Of a DNA stretch of 11,091 nucleotides, positions 3,552 through 10,839 are shown piece after piece. The notes under the pieces are model-generated. The model did no database searches. It saw only the letters and a list, made by a program, of their open reading frames with translations, and was not told where the DNA came from. Origin of the DNA: a virus; UHGV virus genome UHGV-0030812. One strand, given 5' to 3'. The translations under genes were made by a program, and so were the position numbers. Position 1 is the first letter of the stretch; each line of letters opens with the position of its first letter.

Positions 3552-3757
3552 TATTCCCCCCCGTGAACCTGATTCATACCCAGCGCCGCGCGTAAATAGG
3601 CGCGTACCTGCCAGCCTGTTGACGGCTCAACCATCGCCAGCGGATCAAGTCCTGCCGCAATGCCTGCTTTTACGTTCTGCTGGTGGCGTTCCTTGAGCGC
3701 CTTCACGATGTCGGGGCTTATGTACACCGAAACACCGCCTTTTTTCTCTTCAGCCAT
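3551..3757 (-). CDS. Hypothetical protein, 68 aa, first gene of the capsid operon
   Basis: ATG at 3757-3755 with AAGAGGAA Shine-Dalgarno; its stop overlaps the capsid gene start, indicating translational coupling. No family recognised. Confidence 0.55.
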   Translation of the reverse strand: MAEEKKGGVSVYISPDIVKALKERHQQNVKAGIAAGLDPLAMVEPSTGWQVRAYLRAALGMNQVHGGE

Positions 3758-4172: not shown

Positions 4173-4595
4173 TTAAAACGGTATGTTATCCCCGTACGGA
4201 TCATCATTCCCCGCCTGTTGTTTTGCCCTGTTCAGCGCGTCAGTAGCCTGGCCCTGTTGACCTTTTTTGCCGCCCAGTCGCGCCGTTCGCGCACTGATTA
4301 CACTGTCTGCGATAACCTGCCAGCCCTGCCGCGTTTCTCCGTTCTGCCCAGTCCACTGGCTGATCTGCATGTTACCCGCCACGCTCAGGAGTTCACCCTT
4401 GCGGTGCCTTTCCAGTGCTTCGGCCTGTCTGCCAAATGCCAGGACGGATAACCACATCGTCGCCGTTCCGTCATCTGCCTGGCTGCACGGAAGGGGGACC
4501 GCCATACGCGCCAGCGTCATCGGTGTGCCCTTGCTGGTCTGTTTTACCTGCGGGTCGTCCACCAGCCGCCCGTAAGCTGCTATCTGTGCTGTCAT
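4173..4595 (-). CDS. ssb: Single-stranded DNA-binding protein (SSB) homologue
   Basis: 140 aa; the OB-fold core WLSVLAFGRQAEALERHRKGELLSVAGNMQISQWTGQNGETRQGWQVIAD parallels E. coli SSB [51 protein letters not shown]. The acidic C-terminal tip DDPYGDNIPF resembles the SSB DDDIPF tail. Confidence 0.8.
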   Translation of the reverse strand: MTAQIAAYGRLVDDPQVKQTSKGTPMTLARMAVPLPCSQADDGTATMWLSVLAFGRQAEALERHRKGELLSVAGNMQISQWTGQNGETRQGWQVIADSVISARTARLGGKKGQQGQATDALNRAKQQAGNDDPYGDNIPF

Positions 4596-5158: not shown

Positions 5159-6913
5159 TTATAAAAACGCGTCGCACTCGTCTGTTGTTATTGCGTTAGT
5201 CTGCGTTACTCCCTTAACTTTCCGCGTAATATATTCATGTCCGTAAACTTTCGCGGCTGGCTTCATAGCCTTGCCAAAGTCATTTACGTTTAGCGGTTTG
5301 CTCCTGCCTGCGTACGCCATAAACGCCAGATAGACGCGGTAAAGACTGTTTCTGGTCGTGTACTTCACTGAATCGCCACCGCCGCCCATCATCAGGCCGC
5401 GTGCTTCCTCCAGAAAATTCAGGAACTGGCAAAACTCAATAACCGGATCCGTCTGTTGCTTTATTGCCAGAGCTTCATCACCGTCACGCTGTTCCAGTAG
5501 TAAAGCCCTCGCCTTCTCAGGGTCGGTAAAGTTCGCCAGCAATCGGCGGATAATGACAGGGATTTCAGCCGCGATCTTTTCCGGTAGCTCCCTGTCTTTT
5601 TCGGCCTCACTGACGATATTGTCGAAACGGAAAATCACGCGACGACGTGCCACACCTCCGGCCCGTTCGGTGAATATCATCGGGTTATTGTTGGTCGCCA
5701 GCACCACCGCCCTGATTACAGCCGTGAAACGCTTTTCGTATTTCGGGTTAATTTCCACGGGGTCACCGCCCGTGATTTTCTTGATGCCCGTTCCTTCGCC
5801 TGTATATTTCGGCTGGTCAGCCAGGACGATAAGACGACTCCCGACAACCTGCGCACGTCCACCAGCATCATCAAGCGATGTCATTTCAGCGCTTACCGTG
5901 TTCTGTTTCCCTGCCAGAAGGCTGGCTATGTGTGTGAATGTACTTTTACCGCTCCCGCCGTCTCCGGTGGCCTCAATAAACATCTGCCAGTCGTACCGGT
6001 TCGCCATAATCATGTACAGCGCGGCACATATACGCATCATCTTGCGCGGGTCTTTTCCGGCTGCGTGCTCAAGCCATTTATGAAAGTTTGGCGCGTTATC
6101 GCGGATGTTCTCCCCTGGTGCTGGTGGCGTGTACTCAATGCCGTTGTGCGTGGTGATCCAGTTCTCCGGCGTGTGCGGGGAAAATTCCCCCGTTTTCAGG
6201 TCAAGCGCACCATTGGCGAACGGCAACAAATCGCCGGACGGCTCGCCCATTGGTTCGGCAATAACTTTTAACGCTTCCACGGCGTTATTGATTACGCGCT
6301 TGCTGAAAGTGGCCCTGTGCTCTGAATAGATCGCCACCATTTCGCGGCTAAGTTCCATTGTGCTGACCGGACACCATACCCCGCCGCGCCATACGTGAAC
6401 GATTTCACTTTCAGGATGTACGCAAACGCCATCAAAGCGATCGGCAAGCAGCTGCGCGCGCTCACTGTCCGCCATCTGCGAAAGTTGCGCCTTTTGCTTT
6501 ACCGGAAGCTCAATGACCAGACCATCAGAAAGATTCTGGCGCTCACGGGCCAGATATTCGCGCCAGTTCTCCACCTTCTGACCGTGCATACCATCAGGGT
6601 AAAAATTTGCATCCTGTACGCCTGCCGCCGCCAGCTTCTGACCAATCGCCTTTATCATTACTGGCGCAAGATATCCGGCCCTGAATATGCGCACGGATTT
6701 TCTGCCTTCCGGCACAATTTGCAGCTTATCCAGTTCGGATAACTGCTGCTCCCCAAGCCACACAGGAGGCTCATTATCTCCGGCCATACGCGCGTCATGT
6801 TCCTGCCATTGTTTTGCGTGTGACCAGGCATCACTACCCGCAAAAATAATGACTTCTGTTTCTTTGTGTTTTATGCCGCGTGACTGCTGTTTTACGTTCG
6901 GTGCCAGTTTCAT
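5159..6913 (-). CDS. Replication initiator: primase fused to a P4-alpha / D5-type SF3 helicase domain (Pri-Rep)
   Basis: 584 aa; Walker A GDGGSGKST and downstream LIVLAD-type Walker B in the C-terminal half. Size and layout typical of P4-family/PICI primase-helicases. ATG overlaps the upstream stop (ATGA). Confidence 0.85.
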   Translation of the reverse strand: MKLAPNVKQQSRGIKHKETEVIIFAGSDAWSHAKQWQEHDARMAGDNEPPVWLGEQQLSELDKLQIVPEGRKSVRIFRAGYLAPVMIKAIGQKLAAAGVQDANFYPDGMHGQKVENWREYLARERQNLSDGLVIELPVKQKAQLSQMADSERAQLLADRFDGVCVHPESEIVHVWRGGVWCPVSTMELSREMVAIYSEHRATFSKRVINNAVEALKVIAEPMGEPSGDLLPFANGALDLKTGEFSPHTPENWITTHNGIEYTPPAPGENIRDNAPNFHKWLEHAAGKDPRKMMRICAALYMIMANRYDWQMFIEATGDGGSGKSTFTHIASLLAGKQNTVSAEMTSLDDAGGRAQVVGSRLIVLADQPKYTGEGTGIKKITGGDPVEINPKYEKRFTAVIRAVVLATNNNPMIFTERAGGVARRRVIFRFDNIVSEAEKDRELPEKIAAEIPVIIRRLLANFTDPEKARALLLEQRDGDEALAIKQQTDPVIEFCQFLNFLEEARGLMMGGGGDSVKYTTRNSLYRVYLAFMAYAGRSKPLNVNDFGKAMKPAAKVYGHEYITRKVKGVTQTNAITTDECDAFL

Positions 6914-7209
6914 TTTTTACCCCTGAATCCGTTAATCATGGTTTTCAGCTTCTGGATGTTTGCCCGTGCCCTGGCGTTGCTGGTGGGCACGTTATGCGGC
7001 GCGGTCTGTACCAGAGAAAAATCACGCCGGAACTGATAAACAGGCATCACGCAATCATATTCGTAACCTTCACGGCGGTAGGTTACGCGCCGTTCTTCCA
7101 CGCCCTTAATCATTACCGTGCCGCCGTACTGGTCGCGGTAAATATCGCCGCGCGTAAATTTAGGGTGAGTGTTGCCACTGGCAGTTAAGCCAGAATATTT
7201 AAGTTTCAT
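6910..7209 (-). CDS. Hypothetical protein, 99 aa, translationally coupled to the primase gene
   Basis: ATG at 7209-7207 with GGAGAA Shine-Dalgarno; stop overlaps the primase ATG. No family recognised. Confidence 0.55.
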   Translation of the reverse strand: MKLKYSGLTASGNTHPKFTRGDIYRDQYGGTVMIKGVEERRVTYRREGYEYDCVMPVYQFRRDFSLVQTAPHNVPTSNARARANIQKLKTMINGFRGKK

Positions 7210-7279: not shown

Positions 7280-7417
7280 TTACAGGCTCAATTTTTGTTT
7301 GTCGCGTTCATTGTCGCCAAGTGTTTCAAGCCATATGCGTAATATTTCCATCATGCTTTCACTGTGAGAAAGTGCAAGAAATGCGCGGTCTATTGTTTCA
7401 AGGTAAATATCACGCAT
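7280..7417 (-). CDS. Small ORF, 45 aa (MRDIYLETIDRAFLALSHSESMMEILRIWLETLGDNERDKQKLSL), absent from the ORF track
   Basis: ATG at 7417-7415 lies 1 nt after the orf73 stop, with GGGGA 5 nt upstream; TAA at 7282-7280. Hand-translated; fills an otherwise empty 200-bp gap in a tightly packed operon. Confidence 0.35.
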   Translation of the reverse strand: MRDIYLETIDRAFLALSHSESMMEILRIWLETLGDNERDKQKLSL

Positions 7418-7418
7418 A

Positions 7419-7640
7419 TTAATCCCCGTCCGTCGTTTTTCTTAAAATAACCTCTGTCACGAAATCAGCATAATCGGCGACGATATTCAGTACATCAAGC
7501 CCCGTTGATTTATATTCTCTCGTGGAAAGTAAGAAAAAAGCCGCTCTAATAAGCTCTGGCATTGACGAAAGCGCATCAGCCGCATCATCAGGAACGCCGG
7601 AAAATTCCTGTTTCAGGGAATTAAAACGATCATCACGCAT
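7419..7640 (-). CDS. Hypothetical protein, 73 aa (or the C-terminal part of a frameshifted longer protein)
   Basis: ATG at 7640-7638 directly after the G9 tract, which could act as its Shine-Dalgarno. No family recognised. Confidence 0.5.
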   Translation of the reverse strand: MRDDRFNSLKQEFSGVPDDAADALSSMPELIRAAFFLLSTREYKSTGLDVLNIVADYADFVTEVILRKTTDGD

Positions 7641-7873
7641 AACCCCCCCCCATTTTCACAATCAGCAATCAGGATGGCTTTAGCCTCATTCAGCGCCATA
7701 TCCGCACTAAGTTGCATAACCGCCAGCGAATGAGGAACGAAAGCCCCTGCATATTCTGTTTCACTGGTGGCGTGCTTATGCGCCATGTCAGCAATAACAG
7801 AAATATCAATAAGCGCGTGCATCAGCGTAGTGAGCGCGGCGGCTGCTGCGTCCGGTGTGGTTTTATTGCACAT
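7613..7873 (-). CDS. Hypothetical protein, 86 aa from the ATG with the AGGAGG Shine-Dalgarno
   Basis: AGGAGG sits 7 nt upstream of the ATG at 7873-7871, so the ORF-track start at 7915 is probably too long. The ATG overlaps the end of the Icd-like gene. Ends ENGGG LCVMIVLIP* right after the G9 tract. Confidence 0.5.
   Translation of the reverse strand: MCNKTTPDAAAAALTTLMHALIDISVIADMAHKHATSETEYAGAFVPHSLAVMQLSADMALNEAKAILIADCENGGGLCVMIVLIP
7643..7651. repeat. Homopolymer C9 (G9 on the coding strand) at the orf86/orf73 junction
   Basis: Read directly; the two ORFs overlap across it in different frames. Confidence 0.9.
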
Positions 7874-8063
7874 GGCACACCTCCTGACGAATACGGGCGG
7901 CGAATACAGCAACACAACCGGACGGGCAACGGCTACGCGCTTCGCGTTCCGTCCAGGCGGTTACGTGGATGATTTGAGATTCTCCGGCACTTAGTGCCAG
8001 AAAACGCCACACAAAGGCAGTTTGTGTGTGCGCCAGACGTGGGGTATGCTGTGTTCCAGCCAT
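7863..8063 (-). CDS. Small protein (66 aa) resembling the Icd-like family of P4-type elements; first gene of the leftward replication operon
   Basis: ATG at 8063-8061 with AGGAG 7 nt upstream. Sequence MAGTQHTPRLAHTQTAFVWRFLALS...TEREARSRCP...FAARIRQE matches my recollection of Icd-like proteins (unverified). The ORF track shows it only as the tail of an implausible 378-aa read-through ORF. Confidence 0.5.
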   Translation of the reverse strand: MAGTQHTPRLAHTQTAFVWRFLALSAGESQIIHVTAWTEREARSRCPSGCVAVFAARIRQEVCHVQ

Positions 8064-8151
8064 AATCGTTACTCCTGTTAACGGTTTGGTTAGACGCCCC
8101 GCTACTGCCGCAAACAGTTCGGGGCGTTGTCGTTTACATCCTCTTACTGAG

Positions 8152-8228
8152 GTGTGATTTAAATTAAATTCAACTGAATCACAGGTCAAGTGTTTTTTGT
8201 GATTCTTTTTTGTGTATACTGAATCACA
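8152..8228. promoter_or_regulatory. Divergent promoter/operator region with two inverted-repeat sites: TGTGATT-N15-TGAATCACA (8153-8183) and TGTGATTC-N14-TGAATCACA (8198-8228)
   Basis: Repeats read directly. They lie between the leftward operon (start 8063) and the rightward RHH gene (start 8251). The second site overlaps a TATACT -10 candidate (8215-8220). Confidence 0.5.
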
Positions 8229-8250
8229 TCTTTTGTTTAGGAGAATGCAC

Positions 8251-8556
8251 ATGGCAAAAAACACTATCAACGACAAATCAAAACAGATTTCAATTCGTAT
8301 CCCACATGATGCTTTTGATGGCATGGAATCCGTAAAACTGGACGGCGAAAGCAACGCCGGATTCATAGTAACCGCCATGCGCGGGGAGATCGCCCGCCGC
8401 CAGGCAGAAGGAAGCAGTGAAAATCCTCTGATTTCTTCTCTCGATGCATTGGCGCAAGTGGAAAAAATTGGTATTAAAGCTACGGAAGAACTCGGGCAAC
8501 TTATCGCCATCGCTCGTGAAGAACTACAGCGCCGCAAGGCCAAAGAATCAGAATAA
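8251..8556 (+). CDS. Ribbon-helix-helix (CopG/Arc-type) DNA-binding protein; candidate repressor of the element
   Basis: 101 aa from the ATG at 8251, with GGAGA 7 nt upstream (the ORF-track GTG start at 8212 is probably too long). N-terminal KQISIRIPHDAFDGMESV...AGFIVTAMRGEIARR fits a beta-strand/helix/helix RHH fold. Divergent from the replication operon. Confidence 0.6.
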   Translation: MAKNTINDKSKQISIRIPHDAFDGMESVKLDGESNAGFIVTAMRGEIARRQAEGSSENPLISSLDALAQVEKIGIKATEELGQLIAIAREELQRRKAKESE

Positions 8557-8598
8557 TCACTATCAGCGCCGTGGTGTGAGGTATTACGGCGCATTGCT

Positions 8599-8787
8599 AT
8601 GCAGGACAACACAATGACCGATAAAGAATTGACCAAAACATTATCACCGGCACGGAAAAGACGGCGCAGAAAGATAGAGCATGAATCAGAAAGATTCGCG
8701 CCATGTGCTTTTGCCCTTGAGCAATTCCTTAAAGAATACAGGGAAAAGCGCTCATTGCAGGTATGGCAACGAACTGAACCAGACTGA
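8599..8787 (+). CDS. Hypothetical small basic protein, 62 aa (KRRRRK motif)
   Basis: ORF downstream of the RHH gene, ending before the 8883-8910 terminator. No convincing Shine-Dalgarno, so weakly supported. Confidence 0.3.
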   Translation: MQDNTMTDKELTKTLSPARKRRRRKIEHESERFAPCAFALEQFLKEYREKRSLQVWQRTEPD

Positions 8788-8882
8788 TTGCATTGCCCAC
8801 CAGCCTGATAGCGGCTATCATCCCCGTGCTTATGTTTGGGATCACACACACAAACGGCGCAGCGGGTTATCTGTTCAGAAAG

Positions 8883-8910
8883 GCGGCTCCATTTCGGGGC
8901 CGCTTTTTTT
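8883..8910 (+). terminator. Rho-independent terminator for the rightward RHH transcript
   Basis: GCGGCTCC-atttc-GGGGCCGC (8-bp stem, one G-U pair) followed by T7. Confidence 0.7.
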
Positions 8911-9056
8911 ATGCCTGAAAAACCCCAATTTTGTGGTTTTCCAGTCTCACCAGGGCGAACGAATCCCCGCCCACGTTCTGGCGTATATTCAATCTTCATG
9001 GTTATAGCTCTGTGTTCAGATGATTGATGTGTGGCGGCTGCGTGCCGCCAGCGTGA

Positions 9057-9245
9057 TTAATGAACTGCCTTGCAGCTATCCTTCCAGGCCAGAACCTCGG
9101 ATAAAGACCAGCCAACGGAACGACCGCTAAGTTTACGACGTGATGGGAATTGTCCGGCCTTTTCCAGGCGGTAGCGGCATGAGCGGCTAAGGCCTGTTAG
9201 CTTTTCGCATTCTTTTTCACGTATAAACCGATCAGTGCTTAACAC
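9057..9245 (-). CDS. alpA: AlpA-family transcriptional regulator (phage/satellite excisionase-like HTH)
   Basis: 62 aa, GTG start with AAGGGGG Shine-Dalgarno. LTGLSRSCRYRLEKAGQFPSRRKLSGRSVGWSLSEVLAW is the canonical AlpA pattern. Immediately upstream of int on the same strand. Confidence 0.85.
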   Translation of the reverse strand: MLSTDRFIREKECEKLTGLSRSCRYRLEKAGQFPSRRKLSGRSVGWSLSEVLAWKDSCKAVH

Positions 9246-9609: not shown

Positions 9610-10839
9610 TTATTTTCTTCTGGCTACTGGTAGCGTGGTTACGTTTTCATGTGTTCCCGCCAGTATCCCTAACCGCTCCGTCCACATATCCAGCGCATTG
9701 CGTTTAGCATCCAGATAACGGGAATGATTATAAACTCGCTGCATTCCTGGCATCTGGTGGCCTGTAAGCTGCTCCACGACATGCGGATCAACGCCTAAAT
9801 CGTTCAGCATGGTTGTAAAGGTGCGCCGGATGTCATGCAGTGACCAGTGAGGATGATTAAGCCTCCTGTGCGCTAATCTTCCATACTGCGATACGCTGGC
9901 CTCCTGTTTCACTTCCCCCAGCAATAAGCCCGTGTGCCTGTTCTGCTCCACCAGCTGCGTGACGAACGGCAGGATCGCTTCCGGTATGGGCCGGAATATT
10001 GCGACCTTCGTTTTGCTGTGCTCCTTCGGAACGGTCCATAGCATTTCCGTAAAATCCCACTCCCCGATCTCCGATAACCTCAGTTCTACCGTTCTGGCTC
10101 CGAAGACAATCAGGAGGCGGATTAACGCGACGTAGTAAGGGGAGAATATTTTTTTGTCCAGTGCCTGCAATAATTCGCCAAGTTCTTTGTTACTTAAGAC
10201 ACGTTCGCTTATATCCGGTTTTTTCCCAACGTCCGCCACGTTCAGATCGTCCAGAACGTTGCTGATTGCATAGCGCCGCCTACGGCAGAACTTAAGCGCC
10301 TGTTTGCACGCCTGTAGCACGAATCCGGCAGTAACAGGCGTTCGCTTTGCCACCTGGTCAAAACAGGCCAGCCAGTGCCGTAGCTCGCATTTATCCAGCG
10401 GCATAGCACCAATCTGCTGTATTACGTGATTATTAAGTCGCCTTTTCAGGGCGATATAATCCACGCGGTTTTCCTTTACGTAATACTCAAGCCAGTAGGT
10501 GAGCGCATCGCCAACCGTTACGGGCTTTAACGCTTCCTGTACGGTGTAATTCATCTCATGACGTGGATTTTTCCCCTCAGCCAGCCATGTGCGACACTGT
10601 GCGGCTTTTTCCCTGGCTGCTTTCAGGCTCAGATCAGGATAACTTCCCAGCTTAATGCGTTCGGGTCGTGTCTCCCTTCCCGTTCCGGCCCTGTATGTGA
10701 AATACCAGGTCAATTTCCCTGATGTTAAATATTTCACGCTCAGGTTTCCGCCATCACTATAAAACGTGTTTTTCTCCGCTGGCTTACCATGAAGTTTCCT
10801 TAGCAAGGTATCGCTCAGTTTGTTCATTGCTCTGCTCAC
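9610..10839 (-). CDS. int: Tyrosine recombinase, P4-type integrase
   Basis: 409 aa. Catalytic signature: R in ARTVELR, HDIRRTF (H-x-x-R), GHQMPGMQRVYNHSRY (H and Y nucleophile); N-terminal arm-binding-type domain. Start may be GTG at 10839 (AGAGGGGG upstream) or ATG at 10827. Confidence 0.9.
   Translation of the reverse strand: MSRAMNKLSDTLLRKLHGKPAEKNTFYSDGGNLSVKYLTSGKLTWYFTYRAGTGRETRPERIKLGSYPDLSLKAAREKAAQCRTWLAEGKNPRHEMNYTVQEALKPVTVGDALTYWLEYYVKENRVDYIALKRRLNNHVIQQIGAMPLDKCELRHWLACFDQVAKRTPVTAGFVLQACKQALKFCRRRRYAISNVLDDLNVADVGKKPDISERVLSNKELGELLQALDKKIFSPYYVALIRLLIVFGARTVELRLSEIGEWDFTEMLWTVPKEHSKTKVAIFRPIPEAILPFVTQLVEQNRHTGLLLGEVKQEASVSQYGRLAHRRLNHPHWSLHDIRRTFTTMLNDLGVDPHVVEQLTGHQMPGMQRVYNHSRYLDAKRNALDMWTERLGILAGTHENVTTLPVARRK

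What the first reader, a model, noticed from the sequence alone, without database searches (positions are those of the whole stretch)
7613..7873. G9 homopolymer at the orf86/orf73 junction: one-base slip would fuse the two ORFs
On the coding strand the sequence is GAA AAT GGG GGG GGG TTA TGC GTG ATG ..., with orf86 stopping 24 nt later and orf73 starting at the ATG right after the G-run in a different frame. A tenth G (or loss of two) puts the orf73 frame in register with orf86, giving a fusion of about 160 aa. This could be a slipped-strand phase-variable switch, a programmed frameshift, a recent pseudogenising indel, or a homopolymer sequencing error. Alternatively the two are separate genes and the G-run is simply the Shine-Dalgarno for orf73.
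Basis: seen in the sequence. Interest (0 to 1): 0.5.

Follow-up and report, generated by a model that had tools for sequence, protein, structure and literature searches.

The report
Slippery poly-G run joins two genes
A run of nine G's between two tiny genes of an E. coli phage-satellite island really exists and changes length very easily, so that in different strains the two genes are either separate (as here) or fused into one protein, apparently without much consequence.

Summary
G9 lies at 7643-7651 on the minus strand; orf86 (7613-7873) overlaps orf73 (7419-7640) by 28 nt; one extra G, or two fewer, fuses them into 151 or 150 aa, not ~160.

The window is an E. coli PICI-type phage satellite. 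The tract is highly polymorphic: pure runs of 4, 6-11 and 13 G plus interrupted variants. Islands with no SNP in 5.6 kb of flanks carry G8, G9, G10 or G11, each in many independent assemblies. Fused 150-155 aa proteins are abundant (O157:H7 is G7); split forms are equally real (CFT073, Nissle and Shigella are G8).

The window's exact 86-aa product occurs on 155 contigs, so G9 is neither a one-off sequencing error nor a dead gene. orf73 is intact in 48 of 49 split loci, and both halves have dN/dS of 0.2-0.35 in both states. Distant relatives encode each half alone, and each half also occurs beside other partner genes.

Length counts show no three-base periodicity, so the reading frame at the junction looks nearly neutral. 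No conserved frameshift direction or stimulatory RNA structure was found.

Best reading: a replication-slippage hotspot in a run that encodes a Gly tail or linker and probably serves as orf73's Shine-Dalgarno. It produces a tolerated fusion/fission polymorphism. Adaptive phase variation is not excluded. The proteins' function is unknown.

The parts
7643..7651 (-). G9 homopolymer. It encodes the Gly-Gly-Gly C-terminal tail of orf86 and is the SD-like element 2 nt upstream of the orf73 ATG. It is a hypermutable tract.
   Evidence: Tract lengths of 4, 6-11 and 13 in relatives.
7613..7873 (-). orf86: an 86-aa small helical-hairpin protein (phrog_5146; N-half of phrog_2512). In this G9 allele it ends in the out-of-frame tail LCVMIVLIP.
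   Evidence: The exact product is on 155 contigs.
7419..7640 (-). orf73: a 73-aa small helical-hairpin protein (phrog_24341; C-half of phrog_2512) with its own ATG at 7638-7640.
   Evidence: The exact product is on 524 contigs.
7613..7640 (-). The 28-nt overlap of orf86 and orf73 that is specific to the G9/G12 frame. In G8/G11 alleles the overlap is the 8-nt ATGCGTGA.
7880..7884 (-). GGAGG Shine-Dalgarno of orf86.
   Evidence: Read from the sequence.
7280..7417 (-). Truncated third small ORF (45 aa here, 77 aa in relatives; phrog_2196). It is broken by a 31-nt deletion at about 7290-7291. It starts with the same G-run + ATGCGTGAT cassette.
7863..8063 (-). Icd-like 66-aa gene immediately upstream; it overlaps the orf86 start by 11 nt.
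6910..7209 (-). DUF4222 gene (context, same operon).
5159..6913 (-). D5_N/DUF5906 primase-helicase (context, satellite replication module).
9057..9245 (-). AlpA-family regulator (context).
   Evidence: AlpA's role as master regulator of Gram-negative PICIs is from PMC11773190.
9610..10839 (-). Tyrosine integrase (context, island end).

Best explanation
The G-run is a replication-slippage hotspot at the boundary between two small genes in the early operon of an E. coli/Shigella PICI-type phage satellite. The two genes fold independently and can be translated independently.

The run does two jobs. It encodes the glycine tail of orf86 (or a Gly linker when the genes are fused). Lying 2 nt upstream of a conserved ATG, it also supplies the SD-like element for orf73.

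Gain or loss of G's during DNA replication moves the locus among three states:
- n = 4, 7, 10, 13: one fused two-domain protein of 150-155 aa.
- n = 8, 11: two genes coupled by an ATGCGTGA start/stop overlap.
- n = 9, 12 (this window): two genes with a 28-nt overlap and a 9-residue out-of-frame tail on orf86.

In every state both domains are made, tethered or free, so selection barely sees the frame and tract length drifts. The window's G9 is a genuine, heritable split allele.

Shown: the polymorphism, its occurrence on otherwise identical islands, the coding integrity of and purifying selection on both halves in both states, and the existence of stand-alone versions of each half. Inferred: slippage as the mechanism, SD function of the run, near-neutrality of the frame, and that the two proteins act together.
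For: Fused homologues are abundant. All 120 listed hits to a hypothetical fusion cover at least 97% of it; nearly all are 148-161 aa, and three 224-aa entries carry an extra N-terminal ORF. Junctions read ENGGVM, ENGGGVM, ENGGGGVM and ENGGGM.

Tract census.
- 83 loci: G7 x23, G8 x22, G9 x16, G10 x4, G11 x2. Also G4 fused x3, and interrupted runs of 8 nt (x5) and 12 nt (x2) that keep the locus split.
- Complete E. coli genomes, exact junction matches after subtracting about 121 partial matches: G7 ~349, G8 ~130, G9 ~25, G10 8, G11 1, G6 1.

Many lengths on one background.
- For the window's own amino-acid haplotype: G8 form on 292 contigs, G9 on 155, G10 fused on 123, G11 on 70, G7 on 2.
- Islands with 0 SNPs in 5.6 kb of flanks carry G8 (L100), G9 (window, L090, L097), G10 (L087-89) and G11 (L031, L108-110).

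Tract length is inherited.
- All O157:H7 assemblies sampled are G7; CFT073 and several independent Nissle 1917 assemblies are G8.
- The 31-nt deletion marker occurs only with G9.
- A control G7 run before the capsid gene is invariant in 9 loci whose junction tracts are G8-G11.

The two genes are separable.
- Distant relatives are mostly stand-alone proteins of about 75 aa. C-half homologues start exactly at the M of MRDD.
- PHROGs holds separate families for each half and for the fusion.
- orf86 occurs upstream of a different gene (L047, L052), and orf73 downstream of a different gene behind a G6 run (L081-83; about 240 complete genomes).
- AF2 gives two helical hairpins joined by a low-confidence linker, pTM 0.45.

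Both halves are coding in both states. orf73 is intact in 48 of 49 split loci. dN/dS is 0.22-0.34 in both classes.

Length distributions decline smoothly with no 3-nt periodicity.
Against: Neutrality is inferred from length distributions that are confounded by clonal sampling (O157:H7 dominates G7).

About 91% of tracts are uninterrupted, although synonymous GGN changes are possible, and dS is lower next to the junction (0.28 vs 0.92). This could mean selection to keep the tract mutable, or an RNA-level role, rather than drift.

No read-level data were available. Some length calls at G10-G11 could be assembly errors.

SD function and separate translation of orf73 are not demonstrated. The proteins' function is unknown: no Pfam or NCBIfam hit and no structural match.
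Confidence: 0.6

Rival explanations
1. True contingency locus. The poly-G tract is maintained by selection because high-frequency, reversible switching between tethered and untethered forms, or altered orf73 dosage, changes a satellite phenotype such as helper sensing, replication licensing or phage interference. This would give the island population bet-hedging diversity.
For: - Four tract lengths occur on SNP-identical islands, and five lengths on one protein haplotype.
- The tract is kept pure in about 91% of loci despite available synonymous interruptions, and the junction flanks are nearly invariant.
- Both in-frame and out-of-frame states are common in nature.
Against: - A slip does not switch either product off, because orf73 keeps its own ATG and SD-like run.
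- Length distributions show no frame periodicity.
- G7 and G8 are stable across many assemblies of clonal lineages.
- Stably split (interrupted) and stably fused (G4) islands both exist.
- E. coli is mismatch-repair proficient, so expected rates for G9 are well below those of classical contingency loci (general knowledge).
- No phenotype is known.
Confidence: 0.17
2. Recoding. In split alleles such as this G9, ribosomal frameshifting or RNA-polymerase slippage on the G-run produces some fused protein in addition to the two separate products. The locus then always yields a fixed mixture of products, as with programmed frameshifts in phage and IS genes.
For: - G GGG GGG formally fits X XXY YYZ with perfect re-pairing in either direction.
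- The run is SD-like, and internal SD-like sequences are known stimulators of frameshifting in dnaX and prfB (general knowledge).
- Fused proteins are clearly viable.
Against: - Relatives need different shifts: none for G7/G10, +1 for G8/G11, -1 for G9/G12. No conserved recoding requirement exists.
- There is no stable or unusual RNA structure downstream; z = -0.23.
- Interrupted tracts (GGGGTGGG, GGGGGTGG) that would damp slippage persist in split islands.
- Stand-alone homologues of both halves exist.
Confidence: 0.1
3. Artefact or decay. The G9 in this window is a homopolymer sequencing or assembly error, or a recent inactivating frameshift in a degenerating island.
For: - This island copy carries another lesion, a 31-nt deletion in the third small ORF.
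- Its closest complete-genome relative has a nonsense codon in orf73 and a frameshifted integrase.
- Long G-runs are error-prone in several sequencing chemistries (general knowledge).
Against: - The exact 86-aa G9 product is on 155 contigs from several sources, and the index lists it in 337 blocks of the collection.
- G9 plus the deletion recurs in L090, and 11 further places listed as similar to it were not shown.
- The control G7 run is invariant.
- orf73 is intact in 48 of 49 split loci with dN/dS about 0.3.
- Interrupted 8-nt and 12-nt tracts give the same split frames without a long homopolymer.
Confidence: 0.08

Closest known systems
Simple-sequence-repeat (homopolymer) contingency loci of Neisseria, Haemophilus, Campylobacter and Helicobacter, including H. 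pylori poly-C/G tracts that toggle split versus fused ORFs
   Same: - A poly-G tract in coding sequence.
- Tract length differs among otherwise identical sequences.
- Slips change the reading frame and the protein product.
   Different: - The host is mismatch-repair-proficient E. coli, where such loci are rare.
- The slip does not turn a gene off, because the downstream half keeps its own start. The outcome is tethered versus free domains.
- No switching rate or phenotype is known.
- The length distribution shows no sign of frame selection.
Gene fusion/fission ('Rosetta stone') pairs
   Same: - Two proteins of about 75 aa occur as separate genes in some genomes and as one polypeptide in others.
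- The domain boundary lies exactly at the junction. This suggests that they act together.
   Different: Fusion and fission here are recurrent and reversible within one species, even within SNP-identical islands, and are driven by a single hypermutable tract. They are not a rare, fixed rearrangement.
Translationally coupled overlapping genes (ATGA / ATGnnTGA overlaps) in phage and satellite operons
   Same: - The G8/G11 alleles have a classical ATGCGTGA start/stop overlap with an upstream purine-rich SD-like run.
- The neighbouring small ORFs use the same cassette of a G-run followed by ATGCG.
   Different: - The SD-like element is an expanded pure homopolymer of 7-13 nt.
- Its length sets which of three overlap or fusion geometries is present.
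Programmed -1/+1 frameshifting and transcriptional slippage (dnaX, IS elements, phage tail chaperone G/GT)
   Same: - A perfectly slippery run sits at a junction of two overlapping ORFs.
- The fused product is viable.
   Different: - No conserved frame relation among homologues.
- No downstream stimulator.
- Many relatives are fused or split at the DNA level.

Membership tests
SSR-mediated phase-variable (contingency) locus | Simple sequence repeat within or just upstream of a coding region | tested here: met
   G9 lies inside orf86 and 2 nt upstream of the orf73 ATG.
SSR-mediated phase-variable (contingency) locus | Repeat length polymorphic among closely related strains | tested here: met
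   G8, G9, G10 and G11 occur on islands with 0 SNPs in 5.6 kb. Five lengths occur on one protein haplotype.
SSR-mediated phase-variable (contingency) locus | Length change switches expression of a product ON/OFF or alters it | tested here: inconclusive
   The frame change converts a fused protein into two ORFs, but orf73 keeps its own ATG and SD-like run, so nothing is obviously switched off.
SSR-mediated phase-variable (contingency) locus | High-frequency reversible switching within a clonal population, with a selectable phenotype | not testable with these tools
   This needs reads or fluctuation assays. Indirectly, G7 and G8 are stable across many assemblies of O157:H7 and of Nissle/CFT073.
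Programmed ribosomal frameshift site | Slippery sequence allowing tRNA re-pairing | tested here: met
   G GGG GGG, met trivially.
Programmed ribosomal frameshift site | Stimulatory downstream RNA structure at the proper spacing | tested here: not met
   The fold of 7540-7665 (-) has z = -0.23, and 82 of 200 shuffles fold as well. No conserved hairpin lies 5-9 nt downstream.
Programmed ribosomal frameshift site | Same frame relationship conserved among homologues | tested here: not met
   Homologues are in frame (G4/7/10/13), +1 (G8/11) or -1 (G9/12).
Two independent, translationally coupled genes | Downstream ORF has a conserved start codon and an SD-like element; each ORF exists alone elsewhere | tested here: met
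   - The ATG is conserved in the 79 loci recovered with a junction pattern that specifies TTATGC, so this count is partly circular. Every fused protein whose sequence was read keeps the M of MRDD/MLDD.
- Stand-alone C-half proteins start at that M.
- orf73 follows a different gene, with G6 + TAAAC + ATG, in L081-83. orf86 precedes a different gene in L047 and L052.
- PHROGs has separate families for each half.
Pseudogene (frameshift-inactivated fusion) | Loss of constraint on the part downstream of the frameshift | tested here: not met
   orf73 is intact in 48 of 49 split loci. dN/dS is 0.31 in split loci and 0.34 in fused loci.
PICI-type phage satellite (context of the locus) | int - alpA - small ORFs - primase/rep - SSB - capsid/packaging genes in an island of about 11 kb at a chromosomal att site | tested here: met
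   Pfam and PHROG hits. The same layout occurs in CFT073 and O157:H7 islands, whose strains carry the experimentally characterised PICIs EcCICFT073 and EcCIEDL933 (PMC11773190). Helper-dependent mobilisation of this copy was not tested.

The most novel reading that the evidence does not exclude
The poly-G run is a selected contingency locus of a phage satellite. By slipping, the island population continuously generates variants in which two early proteins are tethered, coupled or uncoupled. This would change their stoichiometry or activity, and with it helper-phage sensing, replication or interference. It would be a bet-hedging device of a kind not described for PICIs or for E. coli mobile elements.
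Probability: 0.15. Interest if true: 0.65.

Novelty: new member of a known kind. Interest (0 to 1): 0.4.

Why it matters
- Annotation: for this widespread E. coli/Shigella satellite family, the 86 + 73 aa pair, the 79 + 73/77 aa pair and the 150-155 aa protein are alleles of one locus. PGAP and PHROGs currently treat them as unrelated hypothetical proteins.
- Function: the recurrent fusion is a natural 'Rosetta stone' hint that the two uncharacterised early proteins act together.
- Typing: a G8-G11 tract that varies among SNP-identical islands could mark very recent divergence. It is also a caution for frameshift-based pseudogene calls.
- Biology: if the switching proved adaptive, it would be an unusual example of SSR-based phase variation in a phage satellite of a mismatch-repair-proficient host.

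Tried and rejected
- Pfam and NCBIfam scans of both ORFs and of the fusion gave nothing. PHROGs gave only unknown-function families.
- The AF2 model of the fusion (pLDDT 70, pTM 0.45) followed by Foldseek against the PDB gave no match with E below 1, only generic helical hairpins. No function could be assigned.
- A BLASTP test for paralogy among orf86, orf73, the third ORF and the upstream 70-aa ORF found nothing significant.
- An RNA fold downstream of the run, looking for a frameshift stimulator, found nothing unusual.
- The species-representative genome scan found only Shigella flexneri.
- Literature searches found nothing on this tract. They covered PICI + frameshift, poly-G phase variation in E. 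coli prophages, homopolymeric tract + PICI, and EcCIEDL933.
- The '>=99% identity' band counts of the short-junction searches over-count. About 121 records match the right flank only. I corrected for this using the G6 and G11 queries.
- The nucleotide conservation profile around the junction is partly circular, because loci were selected through junction motifs. I did not use it as evidence for a conserved element.

Full report
**Observation**

The + strand of the window has C9 at 7643-7651, which is G9 on the coding (minus) strand. It is the only homopolymer of 9 or more bases in the 11,091-base window. Dinucleotide-preserving shuffles expect 0.06 such runs per window.

On the minus strand the sequence reads GAA AAT GGG GGG GGG TTA TGC GTG ATG ATC GTT TTA ATT CCC TGA.
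- orf86 runs from ATG 7873 to its stop at 7613-7615. It is 86 aa and is preceded by GGAGG at 7880-7884. It ends in Gly-Gly-Gly plus a nine-residue out-of-frame tail, LCVMIVLIP.
- orf73 runs from ATG 7640 to its stop at 7419-7421. Its ATG lies 2 nt after the run, so the two ORFs overlap by 28 nt.
- One more G, or two fewer, joins the frames. The product would be 151 or 150 aa, not about 160.

**Context**

All genes lie on the minus strand:
- integrase, 9610-10839
- AlpA-family regulator, 9057-9245
- Icd-like gene, 7863-8063
- orf86, orf73 and a third small ORF
- DUF4222 gene, 6910-7209
- D5_N primase-helicase, 5159-6913
- SSB, 4173-4595
- major head protein, head decoration protein and a small-terminase-like protein

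This is the layout of E. coli PICI-type phage satellites. The same arrangement is found in the CFT073 and O157:H7 islands. These strains carry the experimentally characterised PICIs EcCICFT073 and EcCIEDL933, in which AlpA is the master regulator (PMC11773190).

A 551-nt query around the junction matches 1186 of 5426 complete E. coli genomes. Among species-representative genomes, only Shigella flexneri has the locus.

**Fused homologues exist in large numbers**

I searched with the hypothetical G10 fusion. All 120 listed hits are E. coli proteins covering at least 97% of the query. Nearly all are 148-161 aa; three 224-aa entries also include an upstream ORF. Their junctions read ENGGVM (G7), ENGGGVM (G10), ENGGGGVM (G13) and ENGGGM (a different indel).

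PGAP annotates the O157:H7 copy as a single 154-aa hypothetical protein.

**Tract-length census**

In 83 loci (80 IMG/VR contigs and 3 complete genomes) the pure run is G7 in 23, G8 in 22, G9 in 16, G10 in 4 and G11 in 2. The remaining loci include:
- three with a short G4 that is stably fused (GAATATGGGGTTATG)
- five with interrupted 8-nt tracts (GGGGTGGG, GGGGGTGG) that fix the split G8 frame
- two with GGGGAGGGGGGG, which is in the split G9 frame

In complete E. coli genomes I used exact-junction queries of 61-66 nt. About 121 records match only the right flank at 100% identity, as calibrated with the G6 and G11 queries, and I subtracted them. The remaining counts are approximately G7 349, G8 130, G9 25, G10 8, G11 1 and G6 1.

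**The tract changes much faster than the surrounding sequence**

An exact-sequence look-up for the window's own amino-acid haplotype found:

| Tract | Product | Contigs |
|---|---|---|
| G8 | 79 aa | 292 |
| G9 | 86 aa (the window's product) | 155 |
| G10 | 151 aa, fused | 123 |
| G11 | 80 aa | 70 |
| G7 | 150 aa, fused | 2 |

The matching 73-aa orf73 is on 524 contigs.

I then fetched the DNA for these forms and compared 3 kb on the left of the tract and about 2.6 kb on the right. Islands at the same pntB/tqsA site with zero SNPs relative to the window carry G8 (L100), G9 (window, L090, L097), G10 (L087-89) and G11 (L031, L108-110).

Five of eleven multi-member haplotype groups, defined by identical 460-nt flanks, contain more than one tract length.

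**These are not random sequencing errors**

- Tract length is stable within clones. Every O157:H7 assembly sampled is G7. CFT073 and several independent Nissle 1917 assemblies are G8.
- The window carries an independent marker, a 31-nt deletion in the third small ORF. L090 shares it, 11 further places listed as similar to L090 were not shown, and among the loci fetched it occurs only with G9.
- A G7 run just upstream of the capsid ATG (window 3556-3562) is G7 in all nine loci that reach it, although their junction tracts range from G8 to G11.
- Interrupted tracts produce the same split frames without a long homopolymer.

I could not inspect reads, so a minority of G10-G11 calls may still be wrong.

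**The two ORFs are separable genes, and both are functional in both states**

- Against 1.8 billion 50%-identity cluster representatives, the fused protein finds only 51 relatives. Most of the distant ones (41-60% identity) are stand-alone proteins of about 75 aa matching only one half. The C-half proteins begin exactly at the M of MRDD.
- PHROGs holds one family for each half (phrog_5146, phrog_24341) and one for the fusion (phrog_2512). All are of unknown function.
- orf86 is followed by an unrelated gene in L047 and L052.
- orf73 follows an unrelated gene in L081-83, behind a G6 run and TAAAC. About 240 complete genomes match only from the orf73 ATG onward.
- AlphaFold2 models the fusion as two helical hairpins joined by a low-confidence linker at residues 74-96, with pTM 0.45. 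Foldseek finds nothing significant.
- orf73 is intact (73 or 77 aa) in 48 of 49 split loci.
- dN/dS is 0.22-0.34 for both halves in both the split and the fused classes.

A pseudogenising frameshift is therefore rejected for the family. It is unlikely for this window too, although this particular copy has lost the neighbouring third ORF.

**Recoding**

The run is formally a perfect slippery site, but three results argue against a programmed event:
- Homologues need no shift, a +1 shift or a -1 shift, depending on tract length.
- The RNA downstream folds no better than shuffled sequence (z = -0.23).
- Islands with slip-damping interrupted tracts stay split.

Low-level ribosomal or RNA-polymerase slippage on G9 cannot be excluded without protein data.

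**Interpretation**

The run encodes Gly codons at the end of orf86. It also sits where the Shine-Dalgarno of orf73 should be. The neighbouring small genes use the same cassette: GGGG-ATTAAT-ATGCGTGAT before the third ORF, and GGGGGCGATT-ATGCGAAAT in L047.

Mononucleotide runs are known indel hotspots in E. coli, and G:C runs of 8 bp are already outliers in its genome (PMC8510543). Slippage at this run moves the locus among fused, ATGCGTGA-coupled and 28-nt-overlap states.

The length distributions fall off smoothly and show no enrichment or depletion at 7, 10 and 13: 349, 130, 25, 8 and 1 in complete genomes, and 292, 155, 123 and 70 on one haplotype. The reading frame therefore appears close to neutral. 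This fits both domains being produced whether tethered or not, and it suggests that they work together.

I give this reading about 0.6. The main reservation is that most tracts remain uninterrupted and that synonymous divergence is low next to the junction (0.28 vs 0.92). Selection for mutability, meaning a true contingency locus (about 0.17), would also explain those two features. Clonal sampling also limits the neutrality argument.

**Novelty and verdict**

I found no paper describing this tract. The phenomenon belongs to a known kind: homopolymer slippage that generates frame polymorphism and gene fusion or fission.

It is a clear and well-populated example in a setting where this is uncommon, a phage satellite of mismatch-repair-proficient E. 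coli. Its outcome is also unusual, fused versus separate rather than ON versus OFF. I rate interest as moderate (0.4).

Noticed in passing
window 7280-7417 (-), deletion at about 7290-7291: The third small ORF (77 aa, MRDIYLETIDRA..., phrog_2196 in relatives) is cut to 45 aa by a 31-nt deletion relative to L031 and L001. L090 shares the deletion, and 11 further places listed as similar to L090 were not shown, so it is a clonally inherited lesion and not a one-off error.
   Followed up: yes
window 7863-8999 (-) and 8212-8556 (+): The 378-aa minus-strand ORF is a read-through composite; only its last 66 aa are the Icd-like gene. PGAP calls the upstream part an Icd-like pseudogene in L001. The opposite-strand 114-aa ORF has a strong PHROG hit (phrog_6522, 3e-57). 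It is called as a 101-aa gene in related contigs and is probably the real gene there.
   Followed up: partly
window 3556-3562 (+ strand C7, i.e. G7 on -): A second G-run (G7) lies 5 nt upstream of the major-head-protein ATG, at the 1-nt overlap junction with the 68-aa ORF. It is invariant in all 9 related loci checked, so it served as an internal control for homopolymer calling.
   Followed up: yes
window 7417-7440 (-) and L047:3210-3270: Successive small genes in this block start with the same cassette: a G-run, a short AT-rich spacer, then ATGCG(T/A). Examples are GGGGATTAATATGCGTGAT and GGGGGCGATTATGCGAAAT. This looks like a reused translation-initiation and module-junction sequence at which different gene modules are swapped between islands.
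   Followed up: partly
L001 (NZ_CP062876) 4291-4512 and 1273-2501: The closest complete-genome relative (99.8% over the junction region) also has G9. In addition it has a GAA>TAA nonsense codon in orf73 and a frameshifted integrase, so that copy of the island is decaying.
   Followed up: partly
P0013, P0022, P0047 (224 aa); L002:1558-2020: Some gene calls extend the fused protein further upstream through the 70-aa ORF that is present in O157-type islands (MSQEITLQQAAERAH...). This gives a 224-aa triple fusion. It was not checked whether this is a real in-frame read-through or a gene-caller artefact.
   Followed up: no
H65 (O26 RM10386) vs H58 (O26 RM8426): Two O26 strains carry the island at similar chromosomal coordinates (about 1.63 and 1.68 Mb) with G6 (split) and G7 (fused) respectively. 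This is a possible single slip within one serotype lineage, or an assembly error.
   Followed up: no
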